64,000 nucleotides of DNA from Amphiscolops sp. MND2022 (lineage: Eukaryota), in assembly GCA_964187785.1 (NCBI GenBank), contig OZ076414.1, positions 24,490,001 to 24,554,000 on the forward strand, given 5' to 3'. The notes beneath the pieces are model-generated. The model was not told where the DNA came from. It did not search any database and saw nothing but the letters and a program-made list of their open reading frames with translations. Positions 4,110-60,781 of the stretch are shown here, piece by piece (the first letter of the stretch is position 1; the number at the start of each line of letters is the position of its first letter). The position numbers and the translations under genes are program-made.

Positions 4110-7100
4110 CTAGTTCTTTTTGTTTTTCGCTCCCTTATCTTTCGATTTTTGAGCTTGAGGCTCAACATTGGAACAGCGCGCCAATGAAATAGTTGCCTTT
4201 CCTAAGGCTGAACGCGGAGATGGTGAACTGTTGCTCGTGCCAGAATCATTACCACAGGTAACATCACCATCGTCAGGGAGACATAAACTAGGAGGAGTGA
4301 TAACGACCTTCTTGTAAGAAGCTTCAAACAAATTTTGCAAAGTACCCCGTCTAGCACTGCCCCTTTCAGGAAATTCCAGACTAAGAACTTGCGGTCCTGA
4401 AGTAAATCCTTCCCCTACCCAATAGTTGGAAAACACGGAAAATGGATCGCGGATCTTGATACAGGCTTGACACGTTAGGTACAGTGGTAAATGAAACCTG
4501 CACACTGCTCACACAAGAACGAAAGACATCCTCATCTGTTCCTAATTTGGGAACGGAATGACAAATGGTTCAGGAATTCGTACCAAAGGGGGTAAGCATA
4601 AACTGGCAAATTTGAATAGCTGATACAACTCGGATCGGCACTGCAACTCGTAGTGCGAAACTAAAAACTGAAACCAGTCGTCTGGCTGAGAAACTCCACA
4701 GTCTCTAAGTTTCGTAACAAATGAGCGATACTGGCTGACAGCTTTAGCTTTCTCACTCGCAGTAATCCAACCAGTACCCACAAAATGTCCAATAAGATTT
4801 TCGACTGCAGCGGTATACTGCTCTTCAGTACCATGCAAAATAACAGCAGAATCGAAGCAGGCTAAACCACGTACCAAACTGGACTTATCAATCTCGTGCG
4901 ACAAAATAATCCCGCAGAGGGATTTGCAGAAAGTTATAGTCTGATCAACAAACTTGCTGGGTCGCGGAAGCTTGCTAGTCGTAACAAGTCGGTGATAAGC
5001 TTCGTTAACAATAAACTCATCGGCAGTTTTAAACGGCAAATCCGTTTGAGTCAAATCAAGGCTCAGATATCGTTCCCAGTCAGAGATATTGCCAAGGACA
5101 CTATCAAGTAAAATATTCTGGAGTTGGCTATAGACAAAAACAGCATACTGGTTGTACAGCCTGAATCCAGAACCGAATTGATTGCGGGTCTCGGAGAACG
5201 CAGAATTGTCTGAAACACAAAAAATTAATTGGATCAATGTAGTTCAAGCCAAATATCATCAAAGTCAAAGACAAAATGTATTCCTACATCAATAGTAAAT
5301 TAGCAGAACGTCATTATACAGTTTTAAAACGACGCCTATACATTACTATACGGCTATCAGTAGGCGGTTATACGCCACTATACGGTCTCAAAATAATGAA
5401 TATACGTCACTGTGCGGATTCCAGCTTATGACCATACGCCACCATGCAGATTCCAATATGTGAACATGCGTCACTATGCGGATTTCAGTTTGTGACTACA
5501 CGTCACTATGCGGAATTTGGCCGGTGACTATGCGTCACTATGCGGAATCAGCCAATGAAAGTACAAGCGGACACTGATCCTGCTGATGAATTTACTGTAG
5601 TGTGCGGAATACAAGAAATGAACTTCCGTCACTATGCGCATAATGAAAGCCAATCATGCGGTATCATGCAGAAATTGTGGTTCCACATATTCGGCGTCCT
5701 ACGAGTTTTGGAGAATAATCGCAGAATTAAAAGTCAGTAAAAACAACCACACCTATGAGCTAGTACATTTTACGTAAATCATTAAGCCAAAGTGAAAACG
5801 CAAGCAACACGGAATACGAATCTGAAGAAATCCTTTGTTAAACGAAAGTAACGAGCACGTGTTGAATTATGGTTAGAAGAGCGATCAAAAGAAACCTCGG
5901 ACAATAGAACATGAGATAAAACCCAGGATATTAGTAAAATTCATACTAAAAATGGTCGAGGACGCAGCGGATTATAAATAATCTGGCCAAGTAAGCCGTA
6001 TCAAGGCAAAACCACTCGTCAAGGGTGTTGGGCTATAACAAAAAATGGAGATTTAGATCAAAGAAAACGGGTATAATATCATGAAAAGATACAATACAAA
6101 CCTCTCGCATGTGGAACCGATAGGAAGGGAGTCTGGAAACTCGGTTCCGATGGTAGAACTTTATCCTAGTGGACTGACAGGGTTTCAATCAAGATTGAGG
6201 CCTCAGTTGGGGAATATGAAAGGTCAATCACGCACTACAAAACAAATGATTTTCAAAACAAGGAACATAACAACCACACAAATTATGCGAAACGAATTGT
6301 ACCTTGTGAAGAGTCGGCAGCGACTGGAGCCAATCTCTATCCAGCGCAGTTTGCAGCTTCATCAGAATGAAATCCAAGATAGTGCGGTAATCGTGTCTCT
6401 CTAGAATTCGGGAAGTAGGAAGGGAGAGACAACGTTCCAACTCGTTAGGACCAAAGCCATTCACAGACGAAGGCCGCAATCGACCAGGTGGAGAAGATTT
6501 GAGGCAGGAATTGAGTCTGTCTGGACAATCGGTGAGACAGATGCATGACGGATGTTTATCAAAAAGACTCATAAAGGAGGCTGTAAGCCCCATCATTTTC
6601 TTCGGGACCAAAGTCCCTCGAGGACCAGTTCCAAGACAAACTTGGTAGAAAACTGTACCAGCCCAGAAATTTAGAAAGATGTGGGTTTCCAATTGGTCAC
6701 TTTGAAAAGACAAAGAACACGTTTCATTGCCAGAAATTGAAGTGACACAATGCTGCAGCAACTCGCGAAACATGTAAGTGATGATGCCCTGCAATTCAAA
6801 CCACGATTTACTTAGGAACGGACCTGACTAAACGATAAAAAAATAGAGATATACTAACAAATAAACGCTCCCGGTTCCAACTGAATGTAGACTCCTGACT
6901 GTTGCCCGGAAATAGCCGAACCATCTCATTCCACATCCCAGATAGGGAGTTGATGTTACCACCATGACGGAGGCCGTATTCGAGAATGGCAATCTGTGAG
7001 ATGACATTCTCACTCGGATTTGAAGTGGTGGAAAAATCGGGGAGCCGGTCCTGTCCAACCAAAAGACGACAAGCATCCAGTTGAGACGCTATGCGGTGGT

Positions 7101-8639
7101 CTCTTTGGCCACCTTTTTGGCTTCTTGTAAGGCACTCCCGGTGAGAGCTTTTTCGGAACGATCAAAAAAAGGCACCCCAGGTGTTTCTAGTCTTATCCGA
7201 TGCTCTTTCACCAAATGTGAGTCAGTTCTGAAGTGAGAAAGCAGTTCTAGGACGCCTCTACTCATGAGTGATAGCTCCACCCGGCATACTCGACACCACC
7301 ACTTGTATGGTGTCTTCTGGCGGTCTATTGGTCCTGTGGCAAAGAATTTAAGCACCGGGTGTTTGAGTTTGCGTATCATGTGGGTCCTCAGAGAGTACTT
7401 GGCCCTGCGCCGCTTACCACTGGAGACAGGCGCATCCTCACAACTTGATTGAGTCGTTGGCTCGTCCACTTCACGATCATCAATCCTGGCTGACGATTCC
7501 TTTGTGGTCCCTTTGCTGGGTGAAATTGGTGGATCTTCAATCACGCTGGAAGTGAAATTGCTAGTAGAGGCAGGATCTGGATCATTTAAGACGGTTTGAG
7601 GGATCCTCCCCAAGATGTTTGTAATGGCCAGTACTTCCCGTCTGGTGATGACCATTTTTGGTGGTTCAACGCTGCTCGGCCCTGGGTTCTCAGCAGTGGG
7701 CGGAAACTCTCTGGACGAGTTCTCCAGCGTTGTCTCATTGAGTGGAGTTTCAAGACCAATCATTTGAGGAGCTTCTGTAGCAAGCTCTGTTTCCTCTGTC
7801 CGGTGTAGAAAAGATGAAAATCGAGGCGATGGAGTTTGGCAGCTGTTCAAAGCTTCAGCGGCCTCAGTAACCTCTTCCATGAAAGCGTCATCAACAGCCA
7901 TTGACGACAAGTTAGGTAATAGTGGACTTACACTACAATCAGGCCTCTGCGGCGAATCTCCTTTGTTTGCCTCTGTGGCCTCTTGGATAACAAGTACTTT
8001 TGGAGACAAAGAAGTATCTAAAACATCCGCGACTATTTGTTCGATCCCGTCATCATTTTGGGTTACAGACTCCTCAATTGGCCGATCAGGTTCAGGAGGA
8101 TTTGCAACAGTTTCTGGGTTTGGAGTAGAAATGTTCCCAGAAGTAGATTGTATTAGCTGGGGGGATTCTCTGATTCAACAGCAGCAACTTCGAGTGGAAT
8201 GTATACTTTTGTAGGGGACCTAGCCGGCGATTTCCGGGTGGATCCAAAGTCAACTAAAACAGATCGATTTAATGTCGATTTGAATAAAGTTTATAATGAG
8301 CAAAACTAGTCCTGTGGAACAACTGAATCATGACGCGGAGAAAGGAAGTTTCAAAAACAGGCCGAATTAACTCAAAACCAAACCGGATGTAGAAATACTC
8401 CTGAAGAAATTCGAAAATTGATTTTCATCAAGATTAAATCAATTTTCACTGTTTAGCCTGGCCAGCTACTCAGACTAAAATTTGATTCTGATCAGAAAAA
8501 CGCAAACCTTAAATTCCAACTTAAAACAGTAATCGGATCTTACCAGGAGAAGTAGACGTTGGCGACTTGTACCCCAGTAAGCAAGTTCTTTCCGAGGAGT
8601 CTGCTGCCCTCTCGATTTTCTGCGGTTCGTGGGATCCAT
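4110..8639 (-). pseudogene. Antisense 6-exon cargo gene of element A: BED-type zinc finger plus hAT-transposase-like protein, multiply disrupted
   Basis: Exons ~8639-8544, 8253-6859, 6788-6303, 6234-6102, 6032-5951, 5209-4110 with GT..AG borders (exon 5 donor mutated to TT). WWCRVCRVELSLMSRGVLELLSHFRTDSH finger. Colinear with the B cargo; several frameshifts and stops. Confidence 0.85.
5371..5545. repeat. Phased array 1 of element A: six 15-bp cores (YRCGYCACYRTRCGG) every 32 bp, inside cargo intron 5
   Basis: Cores start at 5371, 5403, 5435, 5467, 5499 and 5531; spacers are divergent. Confidence 0.9.
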
Positions 8640-30661: not shown

Positions 30662-31816
30662 TGTTCATGACAAACTCAACAACAACGTTGCCTACCATAC
30701 TACATCACACCGACCAGGACGCTACCAAGAAATGGGAATACCGGAGATTTAACTGCAACGCCGTCAAGTAAACTGCATAACATAAGATGGGTGGCTGATA
30801 CAGAGTAGAATTGACAGCAATGTTGGCAGTCAAACAGCATCGCAAAGACAATCGTAAAGATGCACCTAAAATTTTAAACTTAAACCCACCAAATAACACA
30901 CATAGTTGAATGAAATAATCTATACAAGATCCTTCAATATTCATGAATTACTTCTGAGTGATGACGGGCCTATCCCATTATCATTACCATATCCAAACAA
31001 GGTGTCAGTTTGTGAAATTAGCATCGTTTACACTATTACGTTCATCAAATACCATCTAAGAGTGCTTTGAACTTGTTTAGCTTGTCATTAGGAATTCAAA
31101 CATATTTCACGTAACGACGGTGATACACCATCGTCGTATAACCGCTTCACTCATTTAAATTACGCTGTAACACCAGTTGATGACTCATGTAACTATAGCA
31201 ACATACTAGCATAATATTACTCAACGAATCGCGCAATTACCAGTATGATGCGCCAATTAACATCTTCCCAAGGGTGCCGTGCTATTGGTCATTTCAGTCA
31301 CGTGACGTTGTCACGTGACCAGCTTTGGTCAAGTTGGTAGCAGGTGTTGAAATACAGCCATCACATTTTCGCTACACTGTAACGTAACGTTGCTTACTAC
31401 ATCAGTATTATACTGCGAGTCACACATTTTTCGAAAACATAACAATACTTGTTTTTCAAACTTAATTCAAATCTTAAAACCATCAGTTGTACTTATGGTA
31501 AAAACTAGATCCCAGATTACAAGAAGTGAAACCACCGATACTGCTAGAGTGGAAAGATACAGTGACAACGGAAGCAAAAATAGAATGCCAGATGTTCTCT
31601 CTAGAGGCCAAATAAATGATTTCGATAACGGAGATCAACTCGGTCGCAGAACCAACTACGGATAAAATATGGTTGACCAAAGGTTCTCCGGAATGAATGA
31701 ACAGATCTGTGATCTAACTAGCCTAGTGCTAGCGTTGACAGAAAAGATATCCTCTACCAATAGAGAAGGGAACATACTACTAACTGCATCTAATGCACAC
31801 GCGACCCGCTCTGACA
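30662..31816 (+). repeat. 5' LTR of element C (probably 5'-truncated)
   Basis: Aligns with ~42765-43917; ends CGCTCTGACA immediately before the PBS. Confidence 0.85.
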
Positions 31817-32982
31817 TGGTGACAGGAGTCTCCACAAGCAGCAACCAGACGAACCCATCCCGCCCAACCACATCACAATGCAATCAGTCATCCAGCAGCA
31901 ATTTGACGACATAATGACTGAAATACACCATCTGCGGAATTCAATGTCGGAATCTGTCAGTCACACAAAAAATCCCCCAGACTCAAGTTCCACTTTTCCG
32001 AGACATAGGAAAAGTTCAACGGATTCGATCATCTTCTGCTCAACCACCTCAGACCTCACTAACACAAATTGGCCAAAAGGCAGAAGTAAGCCTACTTCCC
32101 AAGCCTGTTGCGTGACGATGCTACCGAATTCTGACAGTCACTGAAAATCACTATCAGACAACGCTTGCTCAAGTCTTGCCATACTTCAAGAAGGAGTACG
32201 CAAAAGAAGATCTGAAGGAACTAGCCAAGCACAAGTTTGATCAAATACGTTACGATCCTTCAGTCGAGACATTCGACTACTTCCTAAATAAGTGCAAGAA
32301 AGTTGCAAAACAGGCATTCAGGGACAGATCAGAGGACATCTTTGGGATATTCCTGTTTGCAAAGCTCCCCGTACAAATGCAGAATGAACTGGCAATGGCG
32401 GCCGAGCACAATGATACAATGGAGGAAATACCAACATTTGTACAAAGGAGATGCCAGTACGCCCAATTACAACCCGCTACATCAAATGCTCATTCTTTCA
32501 ACCGGATCAACCAACCTCAACCACCGACTCTGGCGCCACAAAACAGCAATACCCAAACACAACCAAACAGAGAGGTCAAAAGGAAATTTGACAGGCAATG
32601 CAGTCACTGTGGCATCCATGGTCACAAATGGGCGGAATGCAGGATTCCCCTCCAGGAAGAATCCCGAGCAATACCTGCAAACCAAAATCCGCAACACACA
32701 GCTCAGCCAAACCAAACACAGGAAAACAAACCAAAATACAACTCCAAACTTGTAAGTAAAATCTGTTGCAAAGTAGGACATTCAGCCCGAGACTGTTACC
32801 ACAGGAATACAACCCAATCAGCCTACAGGAACGTTTCGTATCCTAAACAATCAACGGATGAGAACAAACAATTCAGAAGAGATTTCCGCCAGGCCAACAA
32901 TAGGACCTACAAGACAAACGAAGCTGAAGACTCCGATGAGATAGAGCGACATGATGACGTGAAAGATAGAAAAAACTTCTAA
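31495..32982 (+). pseudogene. gag: gag of element C, starting within the LTR; stops and frameshifts
   Basis: MVKTRSQ.. then RSD|MVTG across the LTR/PBS junction; zinc knuckles CSHCGIHGHKWAEC and (K)ICCKVGHSARDC. Confidence 0.85.
31817..31830 (+). promoter_or_regulatory. Primer-binding site TGGTGACAGGAGTC (tRNA-Leu-like)
   Basis: TGG directly after the LTR-terminal CA. 12 of the first 13 nt match TGGTGTCAGGAGT, the complement of the metazoan tRNA-Leu(CAG) 3' end as I recall it. Confidence 0.7.
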
Positions 32983-33029
32983 AGCCACGTCATCCTCCTC
33001 AATCACACAAAAGTGAACCCACTTACACA

Positions 33030-35828
33030 AAACAAAACTACGAACTTTGTCATTACCAGACACTCGACTGAGAAGTACACCTCATGGCCACCCACCCGAA
33101 CAACCTCTCGGAAACGACACGCTCAAACTACCAAAGCAAAGCAAACGTTCGAAGGCACAGAGTTGCGAAATCCATCAGTTGAGCGCCACCCTACTATTCA
33201 ACAAAAATGTGGTATGTACCACTTCAATTTCATGCCTGCGAAAACTTTGGCCTCCTCGATACGGGTGCAATTCAAAATGCACTCTCTCGAACTGCGATGC
33301 ATCCTATCAGCCCACTCAGCGGCACTCGTTCACAAACTTTCTGCCTCAGAGTTCAAAGTACAAATTGCCAAAGGCAATATCGTACCAGTTTGAAAACAAG
33401 TGCAGTTACGCTTCTTCATCGGTGGCAAGGTTTTTGAAGAAACCTTCATGGTCCTGCCGACGATGGGCAACGTCCTCATAGGAATGTCCTTCTTCACGAA
33501 GTATTCCGTAACCCTCGACGTAGCCAACAACATTGTCAAGTTCCCAGGCATCACCCGCGAACTTCGCTCTGACAACGGGAAATACAAACACGAACTGCTA
33601 GAATTGAAGACCACCCAGAAGATAATCATTCAACCCAACCAGCAAGTGTTTGTTCCAAGAGTGATCGAACGAGACCTTGGTAACATCAGCGGTACAGTGG
33701 AAAGTCTACCAGCATTCGAAAAACGATCACATTTACTCGTGTCACCAGCTCTCAGCGTATCCCAGGAAGGTTGTACTCATGTCCAAGTCACGAATCCACT
33801 GGACTACCATATAACTATCAACGTAGGTACGGCAATAGCATCATTTAAAACCATGACACCGAAACAGGCGAACAATGCCCAACCAATGACGAGTCACCAA
33901 TTTGCTCTGATTTCACAATACCCAGATGACGCAGAACCCGCGCTGAACCAAATCTGTCAGGATCCAGCAACCAAATCAGAGAGGAGATGGTACCCAACCC
34001 CTGAGACATGCGATGAACCGACGAATCTCAACAAAATAGAGAAACGCATCTATGACGAGATCATCAAAGTCAGGGCCGAGGAGAAACTGGGTCCCTCTGC
34101 AAACGAAGATCAACGAAAACAATTTTTGCAAATTTTCAGTGGGAACAAGAGACACAGACAGTAGAGGCCCTGTTGGTCAAAAACCATGACATCTTTGCCA
34201 GACATAGACTGGATATAGAGAACAACACCGAAATTAAGATAATTTTGACTCCTAAGCATGACGAATCAGTCTATGCTCAAAGCCTACCCACACCGACGAA
34301 CCTGAATGACGATCTCTTAGTCGAGCTGGCGTTGACACAGGAGTACGGTATAATCAGCACGTTACCTTACAGCAAGTACCCGTCACCCATCTTCGCCCAG
34401 CGGAAACCGAACTGTAAGCTGAGGATCCTTGTAGACCTCAGGAGGATCAACCTGTTGAAAAACGACTACAATCAGCACAACCATCCAGTGACGACGATGA
34501 ATGGCTGATGCAGCACAACACATGGCAGGAAAACGCTACTTTTGCAAACTGGACTGCTCGCAAGCGTACCACTACCTGCAAATGGCAGACGAACAATCAG
34601 TCCAGTCGCTCGCTTTCAACTTCGGAAGTAGAACCTATGCATATCTCAGGCTAGCCCAAGGACTGAATTAATCTCCGTCAGCCTTCAACAGGACTGTTCG
34701 ATAGTACTTGGACCACTCGGTCAAGGCAGACAAATGCGCCCAAGATGCTGATGATATTGCAGCCAACACTGTCGAAGAACTTGTCGGCAATAATGAGGCG
34801 GTCTTTTTTAAAATCAGCTACGCAAACCTACGCAAACCTTGCTGTAATAGCACACAACCCAACATACTACCAAAACCTAAAATGTTCACCGACTGAAACA
34901 TTCCTTGGATGCGTACCGCACAACGCAATGGATCTCAAATTTGGCAACCTACTGAGCCAACCACCGAGGAACGCCACTGACGTACAGTCACTAGTGGACA
35001 ACCTGAACGCTAAACTCAACGAAACATACACCAACATAAACCGAGCATTCCACAAATACAAAGCATACTAGGACCGGAAGGCAGAAGCTTCACCACTGAA
35101 AGTAAACGACTTTGCCCTTTCATTGACTCCCAAATGTAGCACACATTCGGAAAAAATCCCTTTCAACTCTTGAAGTGGGAGTGACCCTACAAAGTAGTTA
35201 AGATACTGTCACGCTCAAACTACATCGTCCGAAAAATCGGGACCTTCAAAACACAGTGCGTACATAGAATGCGGCTTCGCCCATTTCTACCACACGACCA
35301 CATTGAAGACGTAGATGACGAAAAAATCGACACTATAGCATTCCTGACGCTTTGGACGACCAAACATTATTCAACAAAAGTTTGCCTGAAACTGAAGAAT
35401 CACCGCCGGCTGAAAACACACCAGCAATTGACACAAACGGTTGTAATGGTCGACACTGAACACGTAATCATTTACTATGAACAGGAACGCGTTTATGAGG
35501 TTCCACCAACATTAAACCACCAAGCCCCTCACCGGGGTCTGTTCACCGTGGGCAGATCAAACACACATCCCGAATCTGAAAACCAACCTTAACTGATAAC
35601 TCAATCACCACCGAATTTTGAGTCTGAACCCCATACCCCAATAAGGGACGATGCAACGTCAACGACGTCACCATCAAGAACACTCCATCGATCACGCGCG
35701 ATAATACCACTCGGTACAGTCTGAGAGACGCTCAAGTACCGAGAACATTCGATAATTTCTTTGTTCATGAACTGCAAGCAAAACTCGCTCTCTTAGAATT
35801 CATGCAACGAAAATCCGCTAACCAGTAG
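33030..35828 (+). pseudogene. pol: pol of element C with ~1.85-kb internal deletion (RT thumb, RNase H, most of integrase)
   Basis: LLDTGAIQNAL protease, dUTPase-like spacer, RT PIFAQRKPN..ILVDLRRIN and KLDCSQAY. Jumps at ~34820 to the IN block YANLAVIAHNPTY; tail TRYSLRDAQVP. Confidence 0.9.
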
Positions 35829-37342
35829 ATATTACATGCAATCACTTCGACGTAGTATACTTCACCACATGTATCACACATCTAACCATTCAACCTACCA
35901 AACTATAGTTACAGGAACATCACGAAAGAAAAAATGAAAACTTTTCATTGATGACTGATACTCACTTAAACTACAACTACTACTCTACTCATACAACTAC
36001 AGAACTACAGAACTACAGAATTACCGGCAGAGAAACATTTTACTTTCTACCGAGACAGCTGAGCGGAAAGTAAATACATGTAACGCTGCCGCGACCACTA
36101 CATCACTACAACCGAGTATTATAAGTTCATGCAATCAACATGAAAATCAACCACTAATTTATGCAATTCACGTGAAACACTAGCCAAGTTCAATAAAAGG
36201 GATTGCTTCGCAATTCTGACAGAGACAAGCAGGGGTCTTCCAAACAATCCTTAGAAACAAACACTCCGCATCATGAAATATAAATTATCGAGCGGCTTCG
36301 CTAAGGTTATAATGTATACACCTAAACCACACCCACAGGCTAAAACTTCATAGTGTTGGCTGTGTGGGTGCGTCGTCAAAAGCGTATCTGTGTGGTTGGA
36401 TGAAGCTTGCTGCGTGAAAAACAGCGGCACGTTGAGTCTAAGTTAGTTTTGTGAAGGTTTTGTGACAATAAATTTTTTCACCAGTAACCGTAACTTAAAA
36501 CAAAAAAGAAAGGACAGTAAAAAGCAGTCGTCACCCCTGTTTGACCTGTAAATCATGAACTCTTTGTCTTACTTACAATTCGTAGGCTTCGCGACAGAAA
36601 GTGTAAGAAAGGAAAGGACACGTCTACAGTTGAACCACCTCCAAGAACTAAATACTGAATGGATGACATGCACCAACCCTTGATAAAGTAACAATACACA
36701 CCAATGGACATGAGGATACTCATCTCCATTAGCTACCACCTAATCGTGACATACATTACGAATGATGACGTCGTGAGACTCACATCAACGAAAATGAAGT
36801 CACTACCCGAATGAACAACATGAACTGCGGGACCTGTACTACATTCCGACTCTGACAAGGAATAACTGGGCAACTACAACAGTACACAGTCAAATGTAAA
36901 CAAACACCGAAATGAAAGACCAACTTGGACACGACTTTGTTGAGCTAACACGCTGAAGAAAAACAAAAAGATTGAGATATCTAGGTTTTTTTTTCCTGCA
37001 GTCTAGTATTTCTCACAAACAGAACCGTCCGAACAAGAACGATATAAACAAGAAAAAATCTGCAAAAACGGATACAATGAATAAGACACCGCATACAATA
37101 TTGCACTTCAGAGCATGTAAAATGTATCAAAGAGAAATCCAAACATTTAAACAAGGAAAAATGCAACGGAAAAAGCTCCAGTTCAAATTCGTAAATCAAA
37201 ACACAAAAATGACCACAAATACAAAGTTCAGTACATCGGACGAACTAGTGGCGAAATTTCCTCGACGACTCCCAGACGTCGTCGGCTCATCATCATCACC
37301 TGAATTCTTCACATCAGCCAGACATAAACTCTTTGGGCGACT

Positions 37343-40300
37343 TTATCTCCCTCCCGTCTTTTTGCTTCTTCTATTGCGCCCAGAGCCTTTAACACTTTGT
37401 GCTTGTTTTGACACTGTAGTGCTGGCTCGGCCTCTATTTTTGGCTGTGATAGAGACATGTCGACGTCCGATTGCAAACACAGCCCCTTTCTTGCTTTCTT
37501 TATTCCTGCTTGACTGATCTTTGGACTGATCAAAGTCCGGTTTATGGCCCTCACGGGACTTGTCGCTACCGCCTCGAGCATGTCCAGTTGCTCCAGAACG
37601 GTACTCATCAATGATAGGCGTAGTAGGCTCTACCACATCGGAGCTAACGTCTCAGTCAGTCCGTATTTCAGCAACTGGTCTCAGGGTTCGGACTGCACCT
37701 CATCTGTTGGTTTTGAAACTTGCATATCAGTGCCTTCGCAAACTTACGAAGCAAACCCCTCAACGACTGCCGGGTATGACCGTAGAATTGTTCACGTACC
37801 CAGCTTCTCACAAAATGCACACTTGAGTGTAGGACATACCGCTCATTGCGGTGACACCGACGTCCACAAAGTTAGCATCGTAGGTGCTCACAAGGCAAAT
37901 ACCACACACTAGTTCCAACACTTCACGTATTTCCGCACACCGATCCCAGCAGGGATACGACAGCCAAAGCGAAATGACGTCCTCTACTCCAGAGCCTGTC
38001 TCCCTGGTTCCTGCCCATCGCTTCCTGAAGAACTGAGTTACCTCCCTGTGCTGCCGTTGAATGACTCCGCCGTTGTTGTTCGCAATAATGCCGTATGTTG
38101 TTAACACGGCACAGGTAGCAACCAATGAGTCGACTCGTAGGTCGTCGGACCCACTCTGAATCTGGACAGGGTCAAACAGTGTAAAGCTCTTGTGAGGTAT
38201 CCAATTGTGGTGAAATTGCGTCACAACCTCTCGGCAAACGCTCGTCAGCAAATTGTGGACAGCACGATAAAAGTACGGCAAATTGCCACTTACATCGAAT
38301 CGAAAATACTGCCCGAATTTTAGCTGGTACTGATCTTGGTTGACTGCCACTATCTCACAGGTAATCAGTTGCAACAAGGTAGGGATGTCAAAACTCGCCG
38401 GTACTGAATTGGCAGGATACAAAGATTCTGCCATCGAACGGATAAGCAGTGCCAACTCTCGCTCGACACACAGTTGTTGGTCACGCCGCATTCCACACAA
38501 ACGAGGACAAGCTTCGACTACTGAAACACAAGCAACATCAACGTTAGTTCAGGACGGTAATGAACGAAAGCCGCACATGTAACAGCGTTCAAACGCTAGA
38601 TCCAACGATCCTTCAACAGCTAATCCAAAGCCAATTTTTTTTGCCCCCCCCTTAGAAAATACACAACTAAAACGTCAAAACTACTTACCACGATCAAGAA
38701 TGAAAGGCAGGACGGCAAAGCGGGGACCGACTAGGGCATCATCGAACACTTGCGTCTCAATCTGTGCAACCACGCGCAACTCATATGTAACCGTTGAACG
38801 ATTGCTCCCAAAGTAGACAGATAGGTCGCCCCAGTGTTCAACCACTTCAGCACACAAAGTAGCCAGATGCTGCACGTGTGATTCTCCGTACTGCACATAC
38901 TGAAACGACAAGAACTCACACACGTTATTATTGAACAATAACTTTAGCTAAAATCATCGAGACATATTCCCCACACTACACAAACTCAAAAAAGCTCTAA
39001 ACCCTCCTTCCAAAAAGAACAAACAACAAGCCGAGAATGGCCAAAGTCGGCGTAATATCTAATTCTCAAAAAATAAAAGGGGGACCCTTCGGGCTTTGTG
39101 AAACTCCAGCTGGTTGCAAAACAATTTTAAAAATTGAAAGGGTGACCCTTTGGAGACATGAAAAATTTTCCAAAAAAAATTTTTAAATGAGATTTTTGAA
39201 CAGTGTCACAGTGCCAAAAAATGTAAAAGGGGGGACCCTTTGCAAATTTTTGACATCCATTGTGTTGCAAAATATCGAAACACATGAAGGGGGACTCTCT
39301 GGTGCAATCCAAAAAACTTCAAAAAAAAGTCGCATAGTGCCGAAAAAAAATGGGGCTAAGGTGGGATCTTTAGTGTGCTTTCGAGGTTGTGGACGTCTGT
39401 TTTGTTTTTCTTTTCGTTTTGGACGCGCTTCTGAGGTTGGAGTTGTTGAGGTTTGAAGTTGTTGAGGTTTGAGATTGTTGAACAAATGAACAAAAAAGTG
39501 GACCTTACATGTCTAAAAAAACTACCCACTGTAATAGTCGGGCACATTTTCTACTAAAATGCGCCGACTAAAGAACACGGCCAATGGTAGGACATCATGG
39601 ATGCTATATGGTCTATACTAACACAGTTAAGGCAGATAAGGCAAACGATCGAGAGCGGGGTCCCGAATCACGAACCGAAGCCGGTACCGCAAGTATTCGA
39701 GAATCCCAAATGGCTCGAGTCCTGCAACACTGCTCAGGAATTCTTTCTTCAGACAGTCCAGGATCGTCTCACATGTGAAAACACCCAACACAACATGACT
39801 ACGAGGGGATGCAGCGATGGCCACGGCATGGCCCACGCGACTCGCACCTTCCACTGCAACTGCCCCTAAACGGCTCACTTCCTGCCGGCAAAGAAGAACA
39901 GGAATCAGTGTCTGAATGAGAGCGTTCTCCAACTTGCTTTCCCCGTCCACGACTGCTAAAACTGTCGACCTGACCACTTTGTCACTGATGAGGTTGCTCT
40001 CACAGTGCCACTGATAGCCAGTCCGACAAACAATCACGTAGAAAGCCCTGCAAGATCTGATGGCATCATCCAGCTGTTCAACGACAAATGATTACAAACC
40101 ATAGAGTACCAGGACCTGAAAAAAGACACAACAATGCCACCTATGCAAAAGCCACACTAGCAAAGACAACTCCACCCAACACCCAATGACGCTACACCTA
40201 TCCCAGCTAACAGGCAAATCCGTAAACAGAAAAACAATGGCAAAAAACAATAATCAACCCCCACTAAAATGACATTACATAACACTGGGCATACGTCAAA

Positions 40301-42019
40301 GTTCGAGACTCCAACTGCATCTCGGACCGCAAGCAGTTACTCCAGGAATCCAAACTGCGGATTACTCCTTCAAAGTCTGCCTGATTGAAGTAACATACGA
40401 TGATGTCACAAAGCCACAGGAACTGTGACCCAGCGATTGACAGTTGAGGACGGAGATCACTCGCCATCTCCTCTTCCTCTATCGGAATCCTCATTTCCAC
40501 CGAAAGGCACAGCGTCTATTCTAAACACACGGGAGGCTCAGACATACTCTCCTTGCGGATCCTGCGATCTTCGGCGGCACTCACAAGGCGACAAAATTTG
40601 TCGAGCAGACGTCGTTGTATTATGCTCCTATATTTCTGCTCGATCCAGGTGTACCCTGTTCTCTTCCAATGATCCCACAGGGACGATAGACTACGACCAG
40701 CGATACTCAAGTGGACGCGGCACAACAAGCACCGCGCAAATCCATCTACTACGCGCTTGTGACGCGGGAAACCGACAAATGTTCAGACAATGCCGGAGAC
40801 GAAGTGGGACGGCTTCAAAATTTATGCCTTTCGACATCGTTCTATAACACAAACACAACAACTAGTATGATAAGCTCACGACAAGGAGTACACATAACAA
40901 TACTAGACACTACAATGATCAGTGATGCAACCAACCGTCAGGGACACAGTTCGTTAAAACCACCAAAAAAATTCGAAAAAACCTTACGTAGGTTTATTAC
41001 CCACCGACTATAGTGAAAACGTAGCCCCAGCTAGGCCTAACTTAGTTTAAACCGTACCACTAAAACCCCTTACATGGTCTAATGAGTTCTTACCAGGTCT
41101 TGACGAACCACCACCACCAACTGCAACAGACGCTGTAGACCCGCCCAGAGTCCCGAGCCGATCCAGACGAGCGTCAACAGTAGCATTCACCAGGCCAGAC
41201 ATTTCGTTAGACAAATGAGTGACGACAGCTTCCAAATTTTCCACAGTTGCTAGTCGATCACGCGACACTCTCATACAGAAACCACACATTACCCCAACCG
41301 GGACTCAGCCTATCTACACGGGATTGGCAACAACGACGCTGCTGCCTCCACAGCATGCGTCCAAATACAGAACGCCCCACGACTGTCGAAGATACTCAAA
41401 TACAGTAACTACTATATACCTGTTTGCCTTATTAGAAAGGCCTCCAACTGCTCTCTCAATTTTGGTACAGCGGCTGACGACGTTCCTGACACATCATCAG
41501 TCCGACCGACCAACCGTCGCAGTGCGGCCACAACGTCTTCTCAGTTCAAATTTTCTGCAACACAACACCAAGAAATATACTTATGGCAGATTACTCCAAA
41601 CGAGCATGTGTTTTCCCGGAAAGTACATCAGATTAGAACGACACCGAACCGCATCCGTCTTAAACAACTAAGAAATTATGTGCAACGCTCGACAAATTAA
41701 AATGAGGAAGACTCACAGAGAAAAACACTACAGAAGTAAGGCAAAAGAAAATGAGAAGTCATAATGGATACTACTTACGGAACTCATCAGTCAGTACCAA
41801 TTCCAGGAAGGTGTTGAACGTTTCTGAACGGACCGAAGGAAACAGTCCTGCAAAACGACAACACGTAGGAACCACGGCTACATCAGTCGACCCAGCTTCT
41901 ACCTCGCCAGTAAGGTCCGCTTCCTCTGAAGATAACACCCCAACTTCCTCAACTGGATCCCCTACGATTGACAAAACAATGGCGACGATCTCTTCGTCTG
42001 AAGGATTGATTGCAGACAT
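37343..42019 (-). pseudogene. Antisense multi-exon cargo gene of element C, distant homolog of the A/B cargo
   Basis: Finger CLLCRVHLSIAGRSLSSLWDHWKRTGY (~40730-40650). ILEYLRYRLR..LDRLPYL matches ILDFLLMKLR..LQNLPIL. FDP and DVISLWL..EIREVLELVCGICL match the last exon. GT..AG introns at equivalent positions and phases. Confidence 0.72.
39022..39572 (+). mobile_element. Helentron-like element inserted in an intron of the C cargo gene
   Basis: Starts AACAAGCCGAGAATGGCCAAAGTCGGCG, ends TAGTCGGGCACATTTTCTACTAAAATGCGCCGACTAAA; GGGGGACCCTT internal repeats. Confidence 0.75.
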
Positions 42020-42597: not shown

Positions 42598-42609
42598 AAG
42601 GACGGGAGG
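42598..42609 (+). promoter_or_regulatory. Polypurine tract of element C
   Basis: AAGGACGGGAGG immediately before TGTCATG at 42610. Confidence 0.6.
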
Positions 42610-43917
42610 TGTCATGCCAGAAGCATGATTAGTATAATGGAAATACACTGATGTTGGCGAAAAGACAACACCAATCAGCATTACCTGCGGAAAATGCAAC
42701 TAAATGGGAAAAAGACACAGTTGATCACCCCCCACCACATGGACAACACTTCATCAGAAGTAGTTACTAACAAGCTTAACAACAACGTTGTCTACCGTAC
42801 TACATCACGCCGACCACGACGCTACCAAGAAATTGGAATACCGGAGATTTAATTGCAACACTGTCAATTATACTACATCAAATATGATGGATGGCTAATA
42901 CAGAGTAGAATTGACAGCAATGCTGGCAGTCAAATTGCATGTCAAAGCAATCGAGAAGATGCACCTAAACATTTTGAACTTAAACCCACCAAATAACACA
43001 CATAGTTAAATGCAATAATCTATACAAGATCATTCAATATTTATGAACTACTACTGCGTGAGGACGGGCCTATCCCATCATTACCATTATCCAAAGTGGA
43101 GTCATTTTGTAAAATAAGTATCGTTCATACCAAAACGTTCATCATATACCATGGAAGAGTGCTTAAAACACACTTAGCTTGTCATTAGTGATTCAAATTT
43201 ATTCCACGTAATGACGTTCATACACCATCATCGTAATACCATTTCACTTATTCAAATTACGCTGTAACAGCAGTTGATGGTTCATGTAACTATAGCAACA
43301 TACTAGCTTTTTATTACACAACGAACACTCAATTGCGCAATTACTTGTATGACGCGCCAATTAACACCTACCCAAGAGTGCAGTGCTATTGGTCATCTCA
43401 GTCACGTGACGTTTTCACGTGACCAGCTTTGGTGAAGTTGGTAGGTGTTGAAATACAGCCATTACATTTTTGGTATACTCTAACGTAACGTTGCTTACTA
43501 CATCAGTATTATACTGCGAGATACACATTTTTCGAAAACATTACAATACTTATATTTCAAACTTAATTCAAATCTTAAAACGATCAGTTGTACTTATTGT
43601 AAAAACTTGATCCCAGAATACAAGAATTGAAACTACCGATACTGCTAGAATGGAAGGATACGGTGACAACGAAAGCGAAAGTAGCTTTCCAGAGGTACTT
43701 TCTAGAGACCAAATAAATGATTTCGCTAGAGGTGATTTACGCGGTCGCAGAACCGACTCCGGACAAAATATGGTTGACCAAAGGTTCTCAGAAATGAATA
43801 AACAGATCCGTGATCTAACTAGCCTAGTGCTAGTGTTGACAGAAAAGTTATCCTCTACCAAAAGAGAAGGGAACGGACTACTAACTGCATCTAATGCACA
43901 TGAGACCCGTTCAGACA
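42610..43917 (+). repeat. 3' LTR of element C
   Basis: TG..CA termini (TGTCATG...TCAGACA); homologous to 30662-31816, including the gag N-terminal ORF remnant. Confidence 0.8.
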
Positions 43918-44535: not shown

Positions 44536-44875
44536 TCTCATGGGCCCAATACTGGTTGAAAGTCACGAATGATAAACCCTTGTGCTATTGTTTCAACCCA
44601 AACGGTATTTCAATCAACCTGAACTAAGTGCAATTGCTACCTCAGAGCTGCAAAAAATGACTCGACTTAAATTTTGCAAGAAAGTTGTTTTACTTTTTCA
44701 CTGACCAGAAAACAATAGTTACAGACTCTGAGTAAAAGACTGGTTGGTTCAAAGTTCATGCAACCCTCCAAAAAAGTGCCTTATATATCTTCAAGTTGCC
44801 TCGATTACTAAGGAAAGGATTTCAGGTTCAATCATTAAATTATTGCAGCCAGTGCAATTTATATATTCAACAGTT

Positions 44876-56378: not shown

Positions 56379-59300
56379 ATGGATCCATGTCAAGGTGAAA
56401 GCCCCGGGGAGAAACAAAGATCAAGAAAAGATCAAGCTCCGCATTTTCGTGGAGGAAGAGACTACAATCCGACGTTCTGGGCTGAGCCTGGTAAGTTCAA
56501 CAAATTCAAATTTAGATTTATTTCGATTCATTTTATTAATTGAGTTTTGCAAAGCTGGCCAGGCAGTGCAAAATGAAAATGATCTAGATGCTTATAGAAC
56601 ATTTTCCAAATTTTTTCGAAACGTTTCCGTTTCTAATTTCTAAGCAGCTTCCGTTTCTTCACTCATTTCTTAGTTCCGCGTCCGGAACTAAACAAGAATG
56701 AAACGACTTCCGCTTGAGGTATCCGTTTCCTTTAAATTTTGGTAACAGATTATTGTTTTAGTTGAACTCAGATCAAATCCAGTTACGCCGACTCGATCAC
56801 CATTAAACACTTATGCTTCACTTAAAGCAGCCCCAACAGGTTCTACTAATCCTCTTTCCAACAACGAATCCCCAGTTACTCACCCGCTTCAGATTGACGA
56901 AGGAATAAAGGTTGTGAGTGCACCTCTAAGTCCCAGTCCAGGAGTGACCATATCTGTTACTACGGATGGGGAAAAACTAGAGAGAGATCAACCTAGCTCG
57001 TCTAAGCCAATCAGTTCGGAAACTATATCAACACCGGAGAAAACTATGAATGAACCGCAGTCCAGTTTCGCAAGAGAAATGCTTGAGGAGTTTATTACCC
57101 CTACGACATCTCAAAACCCTCCACCTTGTTACAGTGGACAATTGATGGCGCCTGACCCGACCATACCAGGCATTGGAGCTTCTACCCTTATTCACCAGGT
57201 GGAAGAATCGTTTGACGCGACCCCCATGGAATTTCAGGAAGTAAGCCGAGGAATCACGATCGACCCTTGACTCACTGATGTGGGTCACCCCAACCTGAGC
57301 ATCACAAAGCAGGAGGTTTTGGCCCTAACTAACGTTTTAAGCCGAATACCACATTGTTTCCTCACAGGGGAAGAGCCTAACCCAAACCAGGCGTTGTCCG
57401 TAACAGTAGTGGACGATCTCGCCCAACCCCCTGTACTTACCACTTCCAGTCAGGAAGAGACTGCAATGCCATCTACTTCCGGGGGTATATCTCGACAAAT
57501 ATTAGCGTCGGGACCGTCGTTCCACGGGAAACGAAGGCGACCAAGATACTCTCTAACACTTGGTATGTTAAAGAAGCATCCCATACTAAAGTTCTCTGCC
57601 ACTGGCCCATTGGATGCAGAGGTCAATCCCTACAAGTGGTGGTGTAGGGTATGCAGAACTGAGCTGTCCCTAATGAGTCGGGGGAGTTTGGAGCTCTTAT
57701 CTCACTACCGTTCAGACAGTCACCTGATCAAGGAGCATCGCATCCGAATGGAGGTTCCCGGAACACCTCTATATGATAAGGAAGGTAGAGAACTCCTTGG
57801 GATTGCGCTTCAAGAAGCCAAGAAAACAGCGCGGAAGACTCACCCTATCGCGCCACCGTTAGACAGGTGCAGGCCACTTGTTGGACAAGCTACTGTTCCA
57901 GAACCCAACGCTGTAACAAGCCCTACTGAGAAGGTTCTTTTCCAAATTAGTATAATCGAACACTTGCTCAGACACGGCGGCCATATCACAAGTTTAATTG
58001 GGGTTTACGAAGGACTGTCCCAATTATCCAGCTGTAATCAATTGTCAACCCAGGATTGGTCTGACCAGAGGCTCTTTGTAAGTATCTCATACTCACTTCT
58101 TCTCAATAGGCTTCAATGGTTGAGGTTTCGTTATTATCGTATGTCTTCCATTTGTAATCAACTAAGCTTCCCATGAACAATACAGTCAACGAGGTTTTCT
58201 CATTTTGATTTGTTTTAACAGGGGATCTTGATACACATTTTCAGAGAACTGATGAATTATTGTGTCACTATGGTTACGTCTTCTGCCGTGTATTCCTTGG
58301 CATTGCAACACAAAACCACAACCTCCTACATTATTCTACTGTTTTGGTCAGGAAACGTCTTCCACCGTGTGTGTCTTGGGAGCTCGCCCCGAGGAATGTT
58401 ACTTCCACGCAAAGTTCTTAGTCTCGTTTCATCATTTCTTAGCCTGTTCGAAATTCCTCCATCTTGCCTTACGCTCATCGGAGTGGGAGAGAAATTAGAC
58501 GACTGCTTGACCTCTTCCCTACCGGGCAGTAAACGGCCTTCAATTGTTAATCCCTTTGGTCCTCGCGAGCTTGAGACCAGCCTTGCACTTCCCACTGCAC
58601 AAATAATTGAACGGCACGACTTCCGTACAATCCTAGACTTCCTCCTAATGAAGTTACGAACTGCCTTGGGTAAAGACTGGCTACAAAACTTGCCAATTCT
58701 CCACAAGGTACTTTATTTTTCATTAATTTTCATCATTGAAACACTCAATTTTCGGTATTTAATTTTAGTCTATTCTAGTGTGTACTCCGACTAGAATACT
58801 CCCTCAGTGAGGCCTCCACTATCATCGAGAACCTGTCAAACCAATGGGATCGGGTTAAAGAGCACCTGAATCAAGTTGCGCGACTACCAGCTTACCGCTT
58901 CCACATGAGAGAAGTAATCCTCATTTTATCTCATGTTATCCGTACTATACAAATTTTGGAAGTTGTATATGTATACTTGTTTCAGCCAAGTACCTTAGAC
59001 GAGTGCTTCCGTCTGGACACAGCATACCTGGCCAGACTCTTCGTCATCCGCTGTGTACTCGATCACTGTAAGTTATACAGTTGTTTAGAGCTTTTGTTAT
59101 TTTACTCCAACTCATCAGTATTCTTCTGATTTATATTCCTGAGATAACTTAGGGTAATTTGCTTTAGTGCTCATAATTTTGATATACCCGTTCAGTCTAG
59201 TTTTGCTTGGTTGTATTCAACACGTACTGGCCATTATTCTTTGCTGATTATATTTCTCAATCCTTTTGTGTTTTTGTCTCTTGTAACTAAGTTGTGTGTG

Positions 59301-60781
59301 AGCGCGTAATCGTTTCTTTCCAGTTCGTACTCGCGCATTGAACTTCCTGTGCGATTCCGCATAGTGACGCATAATCATTACGTCTCGTTCCGCACAGTGA
59401 CGTATACTCGTCACACTTCATTCCGTATAGTGACGTATAGTCTCTACACCTTGTTCCGCATAGTGACGTATAGTCGTCACACTTCATTCCGTATAGTGAC
59501 GTATAGTCCTTACACCTTGTTCCGCATAGTGACGCATAATTTCATTCCGCCATTGTGGTAGCAGTGTTCGCAGCTAACGTATATCCACACGTGTAATACT
59601 ATGCGGTCCTTTTGCAGTAAGGTTTGATGCTTTATTACCAGTTAATTAGAGTTTCTTGTTATATTTCAGATAACTCAGCATTCTCCGAAGTGCAGAAACA
59701 GGTGGAAGGTGGTTTCCGCTTATTTAATCAATATGCTGTTTTTACCTACAGCCAACTTCAAAATATCTTGCCCGACAGTGCACTGGGAGATATCTCTGAT
59801 TGGGATAATTTTTTACACTTGGACATGGATCAACCGGATTTACCGTTCAAAACTTGTGATGAGTTTGTTCTAAACGAGGATTTTCATCGTCTGGTTATGG
59901 CTAGTAGGCTGCCTCGTCCTAGCAAATTCGTGGAACAATCCATATCCTTTTGTAAAGCTTTTTGTAAGTTGTTACTTCGCCACGAAATTGCCAAATCGGA
60001 CTTGATCAGAGGTTTGTCTGCTTTTGATCCTGCTGTGGTTTTTGAGACTCCTGAAAGACATTACACTACCGTCATAGAAACGTTGTCAACACACTTTGTC
60101 ACTTCTGGATGGATTTCGGCCAGTGATAAGGTGAAGATTATCAGCCAATACCGGGCTTTCGTGACGAAAATGCGTGCCAGTGCTGTTCCAGAGTATGATG
60201 ATTGGATCCTCTATTTGTCTTCTAATTACGAGATGCAATGTCGAACCGAGTTATTTCTTCTGTTCAAATACTCATGCTTATGCCTGCCCCCGTTGGTTGG
60301 GATGCCGCCCGAAGTCATTATCCTTATTATTTCAAACTTGGAATCTGATGTTGATATGTTCCGGTCATGCCTGCGGAGCTTGCAAGCTTCCTATTTAACT
60401 GTACCCCACGTCTCGAGTTTATACCGAGATCCACGCGCTATTCCCCGAGTTTTTCGTCTCTTAGGGAGGGGAATGGACTTGCTGTCCGATAAAAAGTTCT
60501 CGGTTTGGAACTTTCTAAAGGGCAGTGGGCCAAGGAGAGCGTCTTTGTTGGGCAAATTGGAAACTGGGTATAGGAAAGCTGTTCTTCGCTCGGAGCGGCC
60601 TCCTATTTCATCCAGCAGTACTACCCCTAGTGTGAGTCGACACAGTAGCGTCAACAGCACTCCTTCTCCCGACCCTTCTCTGAGACGGGTTAATTTGGAA
60701 GTTCGCCGATGTGGCACAAGCAGTTCGGAGGATGTTTCGAAAAAGTCAAAGGCTCCAACTGGGAAAGAAAAGAAAAACTAG
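56379..60781 (+). pseudogene. Antisense 6-exon cargo gene of element B (~1080 aa; BED-type finger plus hAT-like body); one in-frame TGA at 57268
   Basis: Exons 56379-56490, 56762-58077, 58222-58707, 58779-58913, 58986-59067 and 59670-60781; phases 1,0,0,0,1 join in frame (3243 nt). NLS-like KRRRPRY; finger WWCRVCRTELSLMSRGSLELLSHYRSDSH. Confidence 0.85.
59357..59536. repeat. Phased array 1 of element B: six CCGYAYAGTGACGYA cores every 33 bp in cargo intron 5
   Basis: Cores at 59357, 59390, 59423, 59456, 59489 and 59522; spacers alternate in a 66-bp higher-order pattern. Confidence 0.92.

What the first reader, a model, noticed from the sequence alone, without database searches (positions are those of the whole stretch)
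37343..42019. A third, far more divergent cargo copy in a different Gypsy family (element C)
Seen: C has a different LTR and gag but the same antisense gene in the same place. It shares the finger spacing (CLLC..LS..GR...L..H), the ILE/DY/FL..LR....L..LP.L block, the FDP block, and intron positions and phases (after exon 1, after the finger exon, before the last exon). The intron equivalent to A/B intron 4 appears absent, and extra N-terminal exons exist. No ORFX homolog or CCGCATA array was recognisable in C. Inference: the cargo predates the split of these families and has been maintained vertically; a diverged finger may recognise a different motif.
Basis: partly seen in the sequence, partly recalled or inferred. 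Interest (0 to 1): 0.72.

Follow-up and report, generated by a model that had tools for sequence, protein, structure and literature searches.

The report
Retrotransposon carrying a disarmed transposase gene
A copy-and-paste jumping gene carries, written backwards and still split by introns, what looks like a cut-and-paste transposase that has lost its cutting site, suggesting one kind of mobile element tamed another and kept it as an accessory gene.

Summary
Element C is a decayed Gypsy copy (about 600 aa of pol deleted) with a broken, spliced antisense gene between pol and the 3' LTR. That gene is homologous to the A/B cargo. Last-exon profiles align over 224 columns (HHalign 95%, E 3e-8; shuffles at most 10%). 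The finger spacing is identical, the middle exon fits without gaps, and two intron positions match, probably three. C has no ORFX and no CCGYATA array.

New here is what the cargo appears to be. Two separately folded B-family exons each rank Hermes (hAT) transposase first of 48,161 PDB chains, in colinear order (Z 6.5 and 5.4, each weak alone). The finger's named look-alikes are all hAT-derived. The catalytic Asp and Glu are not conserved, the gene is under purifying selection (A vs B), and it has at least 154 related clusters.

Best reading: an intron-bearing hAT-like transposase landed antisense in an ancestral Gypsy, lost catalysis and was kept as an accessory DNA-binding gene. Single capture is likely (about 0.7) but untested, with no outgroup and no genomic context for homologs. 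A TnpA/VANC-like regulatory role is inferred (about 0.4). No such case turned up in ten literature searches.

The parts
30670..31816 (+). 5' LTR remnant of C (first ~150 bp missing); its last ~320 nt encode the start of gag (ATG at 31495)
31817..31829 (+). PBS-like site directly after the LTR end, inside the gag frame; likeness to a tRNA-Leu primer site is recalled, not tested
31495..35600 (+). Decayed gag-pol of C: zinc knuckles, protease region, RT start, then ~600 aa of RT-RNaseH-integrase deleted, integrase C-terminus (PF22938, E 3e-6)
41779..42019 (-). Predicted cargo exon 1 of C (open, phase-1 GT donor); no homolog found
41420..41539 (-). Predicted exon 2 (open, AG/GT ends, phase 1/1); no homolog found
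41094..41304 (-). Predicted exon 3 (donor clear; acceptor unresolved, the one tested at 41264 was not AG); no homolog found
40279..40841 (-). Finger exon: C-x2-C-x16-H-x5-(Tyr) at about 40731-40660 plus following helical region; three in-frame stops
   Evidence: (0 of 500 shuffles reach the B-vs-C score)
39624..40115 (-). Middle exon, homologous to A/B exon 3 (486 nt; RNase H-like in the B-family model, Hermes 153-266); two stops; donor unresolved
   Evidence: weak in 68, 85
39020..39577 (.). Foreign short repeat inserted in the intron; pieces match 19.9-20.2 kb and 23.9-24.3 kb; ends approximate
38689..38899 (-). Exon equal to A/B exons 4+5 (their intron 4 absent); Trp at codon 23 as in B
37343..38520 (-). 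Last exon (B-family model matches Hermes 368-609); open for 236 codons, then two frame changes and stops; homology to intact relative P0172 runs to 37444
42598..42609 (+). Polypurine tract
42610..43917 (+). 3' LTR of C, ending ~320 nt into a copy of the gag start
4110..8639 (-). Cargo gene of element A (6 exons; broken: frame changes, a stop, one non-GT donor)
56379..60781 (+). Cargo gene of element B (6 exons, all five introns GT-AG; one stop in exon 2), antisense to B's gag-pol
59355..59538 (+). 33-bp tandem array of CCGYATA-containing units in B's last intron; a 32-bp array lies at 5402-5546 in A's last intron and another at 55845-55964; none in C

Best explanation
C is a dead copy of a divergent family within a Gypsy clade that carries, antisense between pol and the 3' LTR, a domesticated and catalytically disarmed hAT-like DDE transposase gene.

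Shown: C's gene is homologous to the A/B cargo along finger, middle, penultimate and last exons; the A/B gene is under purifying selection and highly diversified.
Supported but weak in each single test: the protein keeps the hAT domain order (BED/SPIN-type finger, RNase H core, large helical insertion, C-terminal part) without a conserved catalytic triad.
Inferred origin: an intron-bearing hAT element inserted once, in reverse, into an ancestral Gypsy. Reverse orientation keeps its introns from being spliced out of the sense genomic RNA, so they survive retrotransposition; occasional intron loss (A/B intron 4 in C) would come from recombination with its own spliced message. The C and A/B families then diverged with their pol.
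Inferred function (about 0.4 on its own): a dimeric nuclear DNA-binding protein that binds same-strand motif arrays in its own family's non-coding DNA (CCGYATA in A/B) and promotes the element's transcription or shields it from silencing, as TnpA and VANC do for plant DNA transposons. The C copy itself makes no product.
For: Homology: HHalign C family (9 seqs) vs A/B family (81 seqs) prob 95.1, E 3.3e-8, 224 colinear columns; the window's own C protein alone 90.4, E 1.4e-6; reversed 0.1; 30 column and 30 block shuffles at most 10.0. An HMM of 99 A/B-family sequences ranks C's last exon first among non-A/B window peptides, E 0.0095 (2,077 peptides). Bridges: P0145 hits A, B (E 7e-13, 1e-14) and C's last exon (E 1e-4); P0120 hits A, B and C's penultimate exon (pairwise E 2e-7). 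Middle exon, ungapped at offset +1: 0 of 2000 shuffles, and best non-A/B of 127,072 window stretches.
hAT origin: middle-exon model (pLDDT 73.5) rank 1 Hermes 8edg, Z 6.5, rmsd 3.4, 103 aligned, Hermes 153-266; Foldseek Hermes 4d1q rank 5, E 0.009, prob 1.00; last-exon model (pLDDT 77.3) rank 1 Hermes, Z 5.4, rmsd 10.1, 168 aligned, Hermes 368-609. All four named Atlas rows for the finger region are GTF2IRD2, SPIN-DOC, FAM200 or ZBED5 types (0.88-0.91; that these derive from hAT is my knowledge). I wrote the hAT guess down, before any fold search.
Catalytic loss: expected first Asp column Q82/E11/D3 of 113, and no column from 24 to 32 has Asp in more than 7 rows; second site G55/D34/N23/E2 of 119; no conserved Glu in last-exon columns 205-221.
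Selection: A vs B cargo dN 0.10-0.56 with dS at or near saturation; 154 clusters for the middle exon, 227 representatives for the last exon.
Motif arrays: 27 of 32 CCGYATA sites lie in the post-pol regions of A and B, 25 of those 27 on one strand.
Against: Both Z-scores are below the tool's typical chance best (7-8). The RNase H hit is tied with a glucokinase (6.4) and close to integrases and ISCth4, and the last-exon rmsd is 10 A. Foldseek finds nothing for the last exon. No Pfam hAT or BED model hits any of 26, 81, 10 or 119 proteins scanned, and no PDB sequence is hit. The Atlas hAT rows share only 139-150 features, recognition 2237 is under the 2300 guide, and the last exon returned exocyst-type helical proteins at 0.85. 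Only B-family exons were folded; C is hAT-like by homology only. Catalytic columns were placed from range ends and recalled motifs, not from a residue-level superposition.
C's middle exon is not found by hmmsearch at E<=5 or HHalign; the gapped test gives 2 of 120, and 49 of 120 for its first 130 residues; the ungapped test was chosen after seeing the offsets.
No DNA context for any homolog, so linkage to Gypsy is seen in 3 elements only. C has the gene but no array. CpG depletion is slight (o/e 0.80-0.92), so a demethylation role has little footing.
Confidence: 0.62

Rival explanations
1. Independent captures: C and A/B each picked up a related hAT element at the same permissive site; shared introns come from the donor transposon family, and catalysis was lost twice.
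For: C-family cargo is extremely distant (stem of about 2.8-3.3 changes per site, longest branch; 18-19% identity). N-terminal exons differ entirely. C lacks ORFX and arrays. C has a Glu near the second catalytic site where A/B mostly have Gly (read). The pol-3'LTR gap is the usual home of extra ORFs (PMC7264820, passages).
Against: C-family aligns with A/B family at E 3e-8 while neither family hits Pfam hAT models or Hermes by sequence. Both share the remodelled C-terminal part to column ~244. Pol and cargo distance ratios overlap. Intermediate proteins exist.
Confidence: 0.2
2. The gene descends from another DDE superfamily with a helical insertion (Mutator, P, Kolobok, Dada) or from a host gene already domesticated from hAT (ZBED/FAM200/GTF2IRD2-like), captured as a host gene.
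For: ISCth4 (Mutator-like) scores Z 5.2-6.3 against the middle exon. Few eukaryotic transposases are in the PDB (my knowledge). The Atlas rows are named after domesticated genes. Many introns suit a host gene.
Against: Hermes is first for both exons. No named host protein turned up among 40 cluster members listed or 120 clusters listed. A host-gene route changes the path, not the hAT ancestry.
Confidence: 0.12
3. Function rival: the dead transposase acts at the DNA-insertion step (binds the arrays on the cDNA and tethers or targets the integration complex, or aids nuclear import), or acts as a repressor or decoy of host hAT elements, and is not a transcriptional anti-silencer.
For: It keeps a transposase-like scaffold and a basic C-terminal tail. 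Arrays also lie just upstream of the 3' LTR. CpG depletion is slight. Nuclear-import roles are proposed for antisense ORFs (PMC7264820, passages).
Against: Arrays sit mostly in an intron and upstream of the cargo and ORFX, same-strand and tandem, the layout reported for VANC targets (PMC5735166, passages). No test here separates these roles.
Confidence: 0.3
4. Not cargo: ordinary nested hAT insertions that decayed in place.
For: All three window copies are broken, and the window is full of nested repeats.
Against: Same site and strand in 3 of 3 elements; amino-acid conservation with saturated synonymous sites between A and B; about 600 member sequences in the 120 clusters listed (my sum), with 107 of 119 aligned rows covering at least 145 of 162 columns; no conserved triad; no convincing TIR pair shared by A, B and C among the 25 longest pairs shown per region.
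Confidence: 0.04

Closest known systems
[quoted passage not shown]
   Same: Position, antisense orientation, family-wide conservation, nearby tandem arrays (about half of Retand clusters), suspected DNA binding.
   Different: Here the gene has 5-6 introns, no TRP28 or other Pfam domain, and a traceable origin in a near full-length hAT-like transposase. PMC7264820 names insertion of another TE as a possible origin of such ORFs but says similarity evidence was lacking. The host here is probably an animal (inferred).
Hermes and other hAT transposases (PDB 8edg, 4d1q); domesticated hAT genes (ZBED, FAM200, GTF2IRD2, DAYSLEEPER)
   Same: Finger, RNase H core, helical insertion and C-terminal part in the same order (B-family models).
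   Different: D180/D248/E572 equivalents not conserved; no hAT Pfam hit; no TIRs found; domesticated by a retrotransposon, not by the host, and present in hundreds of copies.
Spm TnpA and VANDAL VANC, TE-encoded sequence-specific regulators (bioRxiv 10.64898/2026.08.24.746577, abstract and two sections; PMC5735166, abstract and passages)
   Same: TE-borne accessory protein. TnpA derives from a transposase. VANC targets are same-orientation motifs in tandem repeats in introns and intergenic DNA and differ between families.
   Different: Those act within DNA transposons of plants; TnpA keeps only the DNA-binding part. Here a class I element holds a whole class II scaffold. Binding and anti-silencing are untested here, and C has no array.
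Ty1-type LTR layout (recalled, not looked up)
   Same: gag starts inside the LTR and the primer site lies within gag.
   Different: Ty1 is a Copia-type element and its overlap is short; here it is ~320 nt in C and ~570 nt in A/B.

Membership tests
Ty3/Gypsy LTR retrotransposon | Two direct LTRs with PBS and PPT | tested here: met
   5' LTR truncated; tRNA identity of the PBS recalled only
Ty3/Gypsy LTR retrotransposon | pol order PR-RT-RNaseH-INT | tested here: met
   Pfam on A and B pol; C colinear with them by tblastn but with ~600 aa deleted
Ty3/Gypsy LTR retrotransposon | Target-site duplication around C | tested here: inconclusive
   5' end of the 5' LTR is lost; no adjacent match
Ty3/Gypsy LTR retrotransposon | Named clade by RT tree | not tested
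   no reference RT set was fetched
hAT transposase | [quoted passage not shown] | tested here: inconclusive
   Atlas rows zf-C2H2_12, zf-BED, FAM200/ZBED5 at 0.88-0.91; no Pfam BED hit; C lacks the fourth ligand
hAT transposase | RNase H-like catalytic fold | tested here: met
   B-family middle exon: alpha-beta3-alpha-beta-alpha, top hits Hermes, integrases and other RNase H folds; C by homology only
hAT transposase | Large alpha-helical insertion between second Asp and Glu | tested here: inconclusive
   rank 1 Hermes 368-609 but Z 5.4, rmsd 10.1; no Foldseek match
hAT transposase | Conserved D, D, E (Hermes D180, D248, E572; PMC6027215 passage) | tested here: not met
   column counts; columns placed from alignment ranges and recalled motifs
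hAT transposase | C-terminal hAT dimerisation domain (Pfam) | tested here: not met
   0 of 81 last-exon proteins at E<=1; 0 of 10
hAT transposon (element) | TIRs and 8-bp target duplication around the gene | tested here: inconclusive
   25 longest of 211, 169 and 207 inverted pairs seen; a 17-nt 88% pair flanks A's gene and a 20-nt 70% pair flanks C's, neither shared between elements; old TIRs could have decayed
Retand/Grande/Boty antisense aORF | Antisense ORF between pol and 3' LTR, conserved across copies | tested here: met
   3 of 3 elements
Retand antisense aORF | TRP28 domain (PF04195) | tested here: not met
   no hit
Retand/Grande/Boty antisense aORF | Antisense transcription | not testable with these tools
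   no sequencing run could be listed
VANC/TnpA-like regulator | Family-specific same-strand motif arrays in non-coding DNA | tested here: inconclusive
   met in A and B, absent in C
VANC/TnpA-like regulator | Sequence-specific binding and derepression of cognate copies | not testable with these tools
   needs EMSA, ChIP and expression data

The most novel reading that the evidence does not exclude
An old, diversified clade of animal Gypsy retrotransposons domesticated a whole hAT transposase once, kept its introns by holding it antisense, removed its catalytic triad, and uses it as a family-specific DNA-binding regulator whose finger co-evolves with motif arrays in the element. This would be a class I element running a class II-derived anti-silencing or activator system, with C as the deepest known branch.
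Probability: 0.3. Interest if true: 0.88.

Novelty: new variant of a known kind. Interest (0 to 1): 0.72.

Why it matters
The origin and role of antisense extra genes in Gypsy elements are stated as unknown in the reviews read (PMC7264820, PMC11963269), and nested-TE origin was proposed there without similarity evidence. This family offers a traceable case: a transposase domesticated by another transposon. It would extend the 'transposase to regulator by loss of catalysis' route (bioRxiv 10.64898/2026.08.24.746577) from hosts and DNA transposons to retrotransposons. It gives a concrete protein-motif pair (A/B finger and CCGYATA arrays) to test, and hundreds of subfamilies for co-evolution analysis. 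C matters because it dates the capture before a deep family split and shows that the cargo outlasts ORFX and the arrays, which suggests it is the core accessory part.

Tried and rejected
No whole genome is held. No sequencing run was listed; that is no evidence on expression. Scans for loci found nothing: metagenome contigs with C's last exon and with a 5-sequence A/B alignment, viral contigs. A search for longer forms of B's last exon (647-2000 aa) gave 0 of 2,962 candidates (weak evidence). Pfam scans were blank for all cargo pieces. PDB sequence searches with three profiles gave nothing under E 0.39. Foldseek of the last exon against PDB and viral models gave no match at E<=0.001. The Atlas pointed the last exon to exocyst/COG helical proteins at 0.85 or less; rejected as a generic helical-bundle likeness. 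De novo k-mer search in C's non-coding DNA showed nothing above 30 shuffles; two 6-mers in the whole C region reached 16 against a shuffle maximum of 14, but that region includes coding DNA, so I did not treat them as a motif. The PWM scan is circular for A/B because it was built from their sites. The tree (37 of the available last-exon proteins, chosen for length; quick method, careful search unfinished; no outgroup) cannot order events. Two small RT pieces (25 and 28 columns) are too short to weigh. Earlier-scan look-ups by sequence and place were empty. The host was not identified. No complex prediction was run. No spliced full-length protein was folded, so the domain order rests on separately folded exons.
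Full report
Setting. The window is eukaryotic, probably animal (GT-AG introns, an LDLa-repeat gene; host not identified). It holds three LTR elements: A (1-12.6 kb, +), C (30670-43917, +) and B (52480-64000, -). A and B pol carry protease, RT, RNase H and integrase in Gypsy order and are 87% identical. C has its own LTR (two copies, 12.3% mismatch over 1,139 columns; no blastn match to A/B LTRs), a PBS-like site at 31817 and a PPT at 42598-42609. Its pol matches A at 50-69% in RT pieces and 39-40% in the integrase tail, with about 600 aa deleted between. C is therefore a dead copy of a different but related family. All three share an odd layout: the LTR runs on into the start of gag.

The observation. 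C has an antisense gene of seven predicted exons at 42019-37343. Single-sequence tblastn links it to A/B only through the finger (35 aa ungapped, E 0.006 and 0.04). I therefore gathered homologs. B's last exon has 227 representatives at E<=0.001, of which 150 were listed. The A/B middle exon has 154 clusters, of which 120 were listed. C's last exon has one sister cluster of 7 members, one of them an open 453-aa ORF, plus a second near-copy of C itself. All are unnamed ENA, MGnify or JGI records, and no DNA context could be fetched.

Last exon. An HMM from B plus the 98 hits of 150 aa or more ranks C's exon as the best non-A/B peptide of 2,077 (E 0.0095). HHalign of the C family (9 rows) against 81 A/B-family rows gives 95.1%, E 3.3e-8, 224 colinear columns. 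The window's own protein alone gives 90.4%; reversed and 60 shuffled profiles give at most 10%. P0145, found with B, hits C by plain tblastn at E 1e-4, although HHalign of the C family against P0145 alone is weak (5.9%).

Other exons. Penultimate exon: it matches the N-terminus of P0120, another B hit (E 2e-7), has Trp at codon 23 as B exon 4 does, and scores above all but 27 of 2,000 shuffles against a 7-row exon-4 profile. At 211 nt it equals B exons 4+5 (217 nt), so A/B intron 4 is absent. Middle exon: local methods miss it or see only the last 25 columns, and a gapped global test gives 2 of 120. Ungapped at a one-codon offset it beats 2,000 of 2,000 shuffles and is the best non-A/B stretch of 127,072 in the window; its first 130 columns alone give 6 of 2,000 (test chosen after seeing offsets). 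Finger exon: global B-vs-C score is reached by 0 of 500 shuffles; C has Tyr at the fourth ligand. The three N-terminal exons match none of 299 proteins. Two intron positions are shared, a third probably, and the first is untestable. C's gene carries stops in exons 4, 5 and 7 and two frame changes in exon 7. ORFX has no counterpart in C. CCGYATA occurs 32 times in the window (5.9 expected): 12 in A's and 15 in B's post-pol region, 1 in C, 4 elsewhere. C has no substitute motif.

What the cargo is. From recalled motifs I guessed a hAT transposase (recorded) and then tested it on B-family exons. The middle exon folds as an RNase H-like alpha-beta3-alpha-beta-alpha unit. Its top match among 48,161 chains is Hermes transposase, Z 6.5, rmsd 3.4, residues 153-266, tied with a glucokinase and near integrases and ISCth4; Foldseek ranks Hermes fifth (E 0.009). 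The all-helical last exon also ranks Hermes first, Z 5.4, rmsd 10.1, residues 368-609, with no Foldseek match. The finger region's named Atlas neighbours are GTF2IRD2, SPIN-DOC, FAM200 and ZBED5 types at 0.88-0.91. Each result is under the tools' own confidence guides, and sequence libraries are blank. What carries weight is that three separate pieces point to one superfamily in the right order. Hermes needs D180, D248 and E572 (PMC6027215, passage). The matching columns read Q82/E11/D3 of 113, G55/D34/N23/E2 of 119, and no conserved Glu, so the A/B family is very likely catalytically dead. C has Cys near the first site and Glu near the second, register uncertain. Between A and B the cargo shows dN 0.10-0.56 with synonymous sites at or near saturation, against dN 0.07 for pol: it was kept as a protein, evolving faster than pol. 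No TIR pair is shared by the three elements.

How it most likely works. Shown: homology, selection, absence of ORFX and arrays in C. Supported: hAT-like scaffold without triad. Inferred: an intron-bearing transposon inserted in reverse downstream of pol, where its introns are invisible to splicing of the sense genomic RNA and so persist, and it was then retained for DNA binding. A and B carry same-strand tandem motif arrays in the last intron and upstream regions (25 of 27 sites on one strand). That is the layout reported for VANC targets (PMC5735166, passages), and TnpA shows a transposase becoming a TE regulator (bioRxiv 10.64898/2026.08.24.746577, sections read). I put about 0.4 on a family-specific transcriptional or anti-silencing role and about 0.3 on integration tethering, import or decoy roles; C's lack of arrays and the slight CpG depletion count against the first.

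Vertical descent. d(AB,C)/d(A,B) is 7.0, 4.0 and 11.1 for three cargo exons and 11.1, 3.3 and 4.7 for pol pieces (short, noisy). That is compatible with co-divergence. The last-exon tree shows graded diversity with the C family on the longest branch and no root. Single capture about 0.7; two captures of related hAT elements about 0.2.

Comparison and novelty. Antisense extra ORFs at this site are known in plant Retand, Grande and RIRE2 and in fungal Boty (PMC11963269 passages; PMC7264820 passages and section 5; PMC8365987 passages; Zhao 2011 seen only as a citation; the brtn lead came from earlier finding e1-7568423). PMC7264820 says their origin is mostly unknown and that a nested-TE origin lacked similarity evidence. 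Ten searches of the open-access library (listings only, apart from the papers named here, plus passages of PMC6431247 and PMC13547354) showed no Gypsy clade with a hAT-derived accessory gene. Subscription papers, Repbase entries and supplements were not seen and may describe one. The gene should not be filed as a hAT transposase (triad and Pfam domain not met); it looks derived from one. Verdict: observation confirmed, interpretation partly supported and extended; a new variant of a known kind; interest 0.72.

Noticed in passing
window 31495-31829, 43596-43917, 12020-12590, 53050-52480: In all three elements the LTR extends 320-570 nt into the start of gag, so the PBS-like site of C lies inside the gag frame and each 3' LTR ends in a gag fragment.
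   Followed up: partly
window 9976-11042 (+) and 54996-53917 (-): ORFX, a sense ORF of about 350 aa in A and B at the env position: no Pfam hit, conserved C-terminal part with a CxxC, dN 0.19 with saturated dS. Its identity was not pursued.
   Followed up: partly
window 44800-48100 (-): An array of at least 13 LDL-receptor class A repeats at ~141-144 nt spacing, 11 of them in one 531-aa open frame.
   Followed up: no
window 39020-39577; 19900-20200; 23380-24360; 29545-30540: A short repeat family with internal sub-repeats, inserted in a C intron and present several times upstream, where it may have truncated C's 5' LTR.
   Followed up: no
P0120, P0137, P0145, P0148: A distant subfamily whose ORFs (clearly P0120, P0137, P0145) run from the penultimate-exon region into the last exon without a break, so it seems to lack the intron that A, B and C share; it bridges A/B and C by sequence.
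   Followed up: partly
P0286: One homolog joins the finger region directly to the middle exon in one ORF, through a deletion or intron loss.
   Followed up: no
window 27477-26998 (-): Weak RT/RNase H remnant (E 3e-4 to B pol) in the 13-30 kb interval: another decayed retroelement.
   Followed up: no
window 50389-50725 and 52146-52479: A 337-bp direct repeat, 94% identical, one copy abutting B's 3' LTR end.
   Followed up: no
window 3961-3977 and 8718-8734: A 17-nt 88% inverted pair flanks A's cargo gene; no equivalent was seen in B or C, probably chance.
   Followed up: partly
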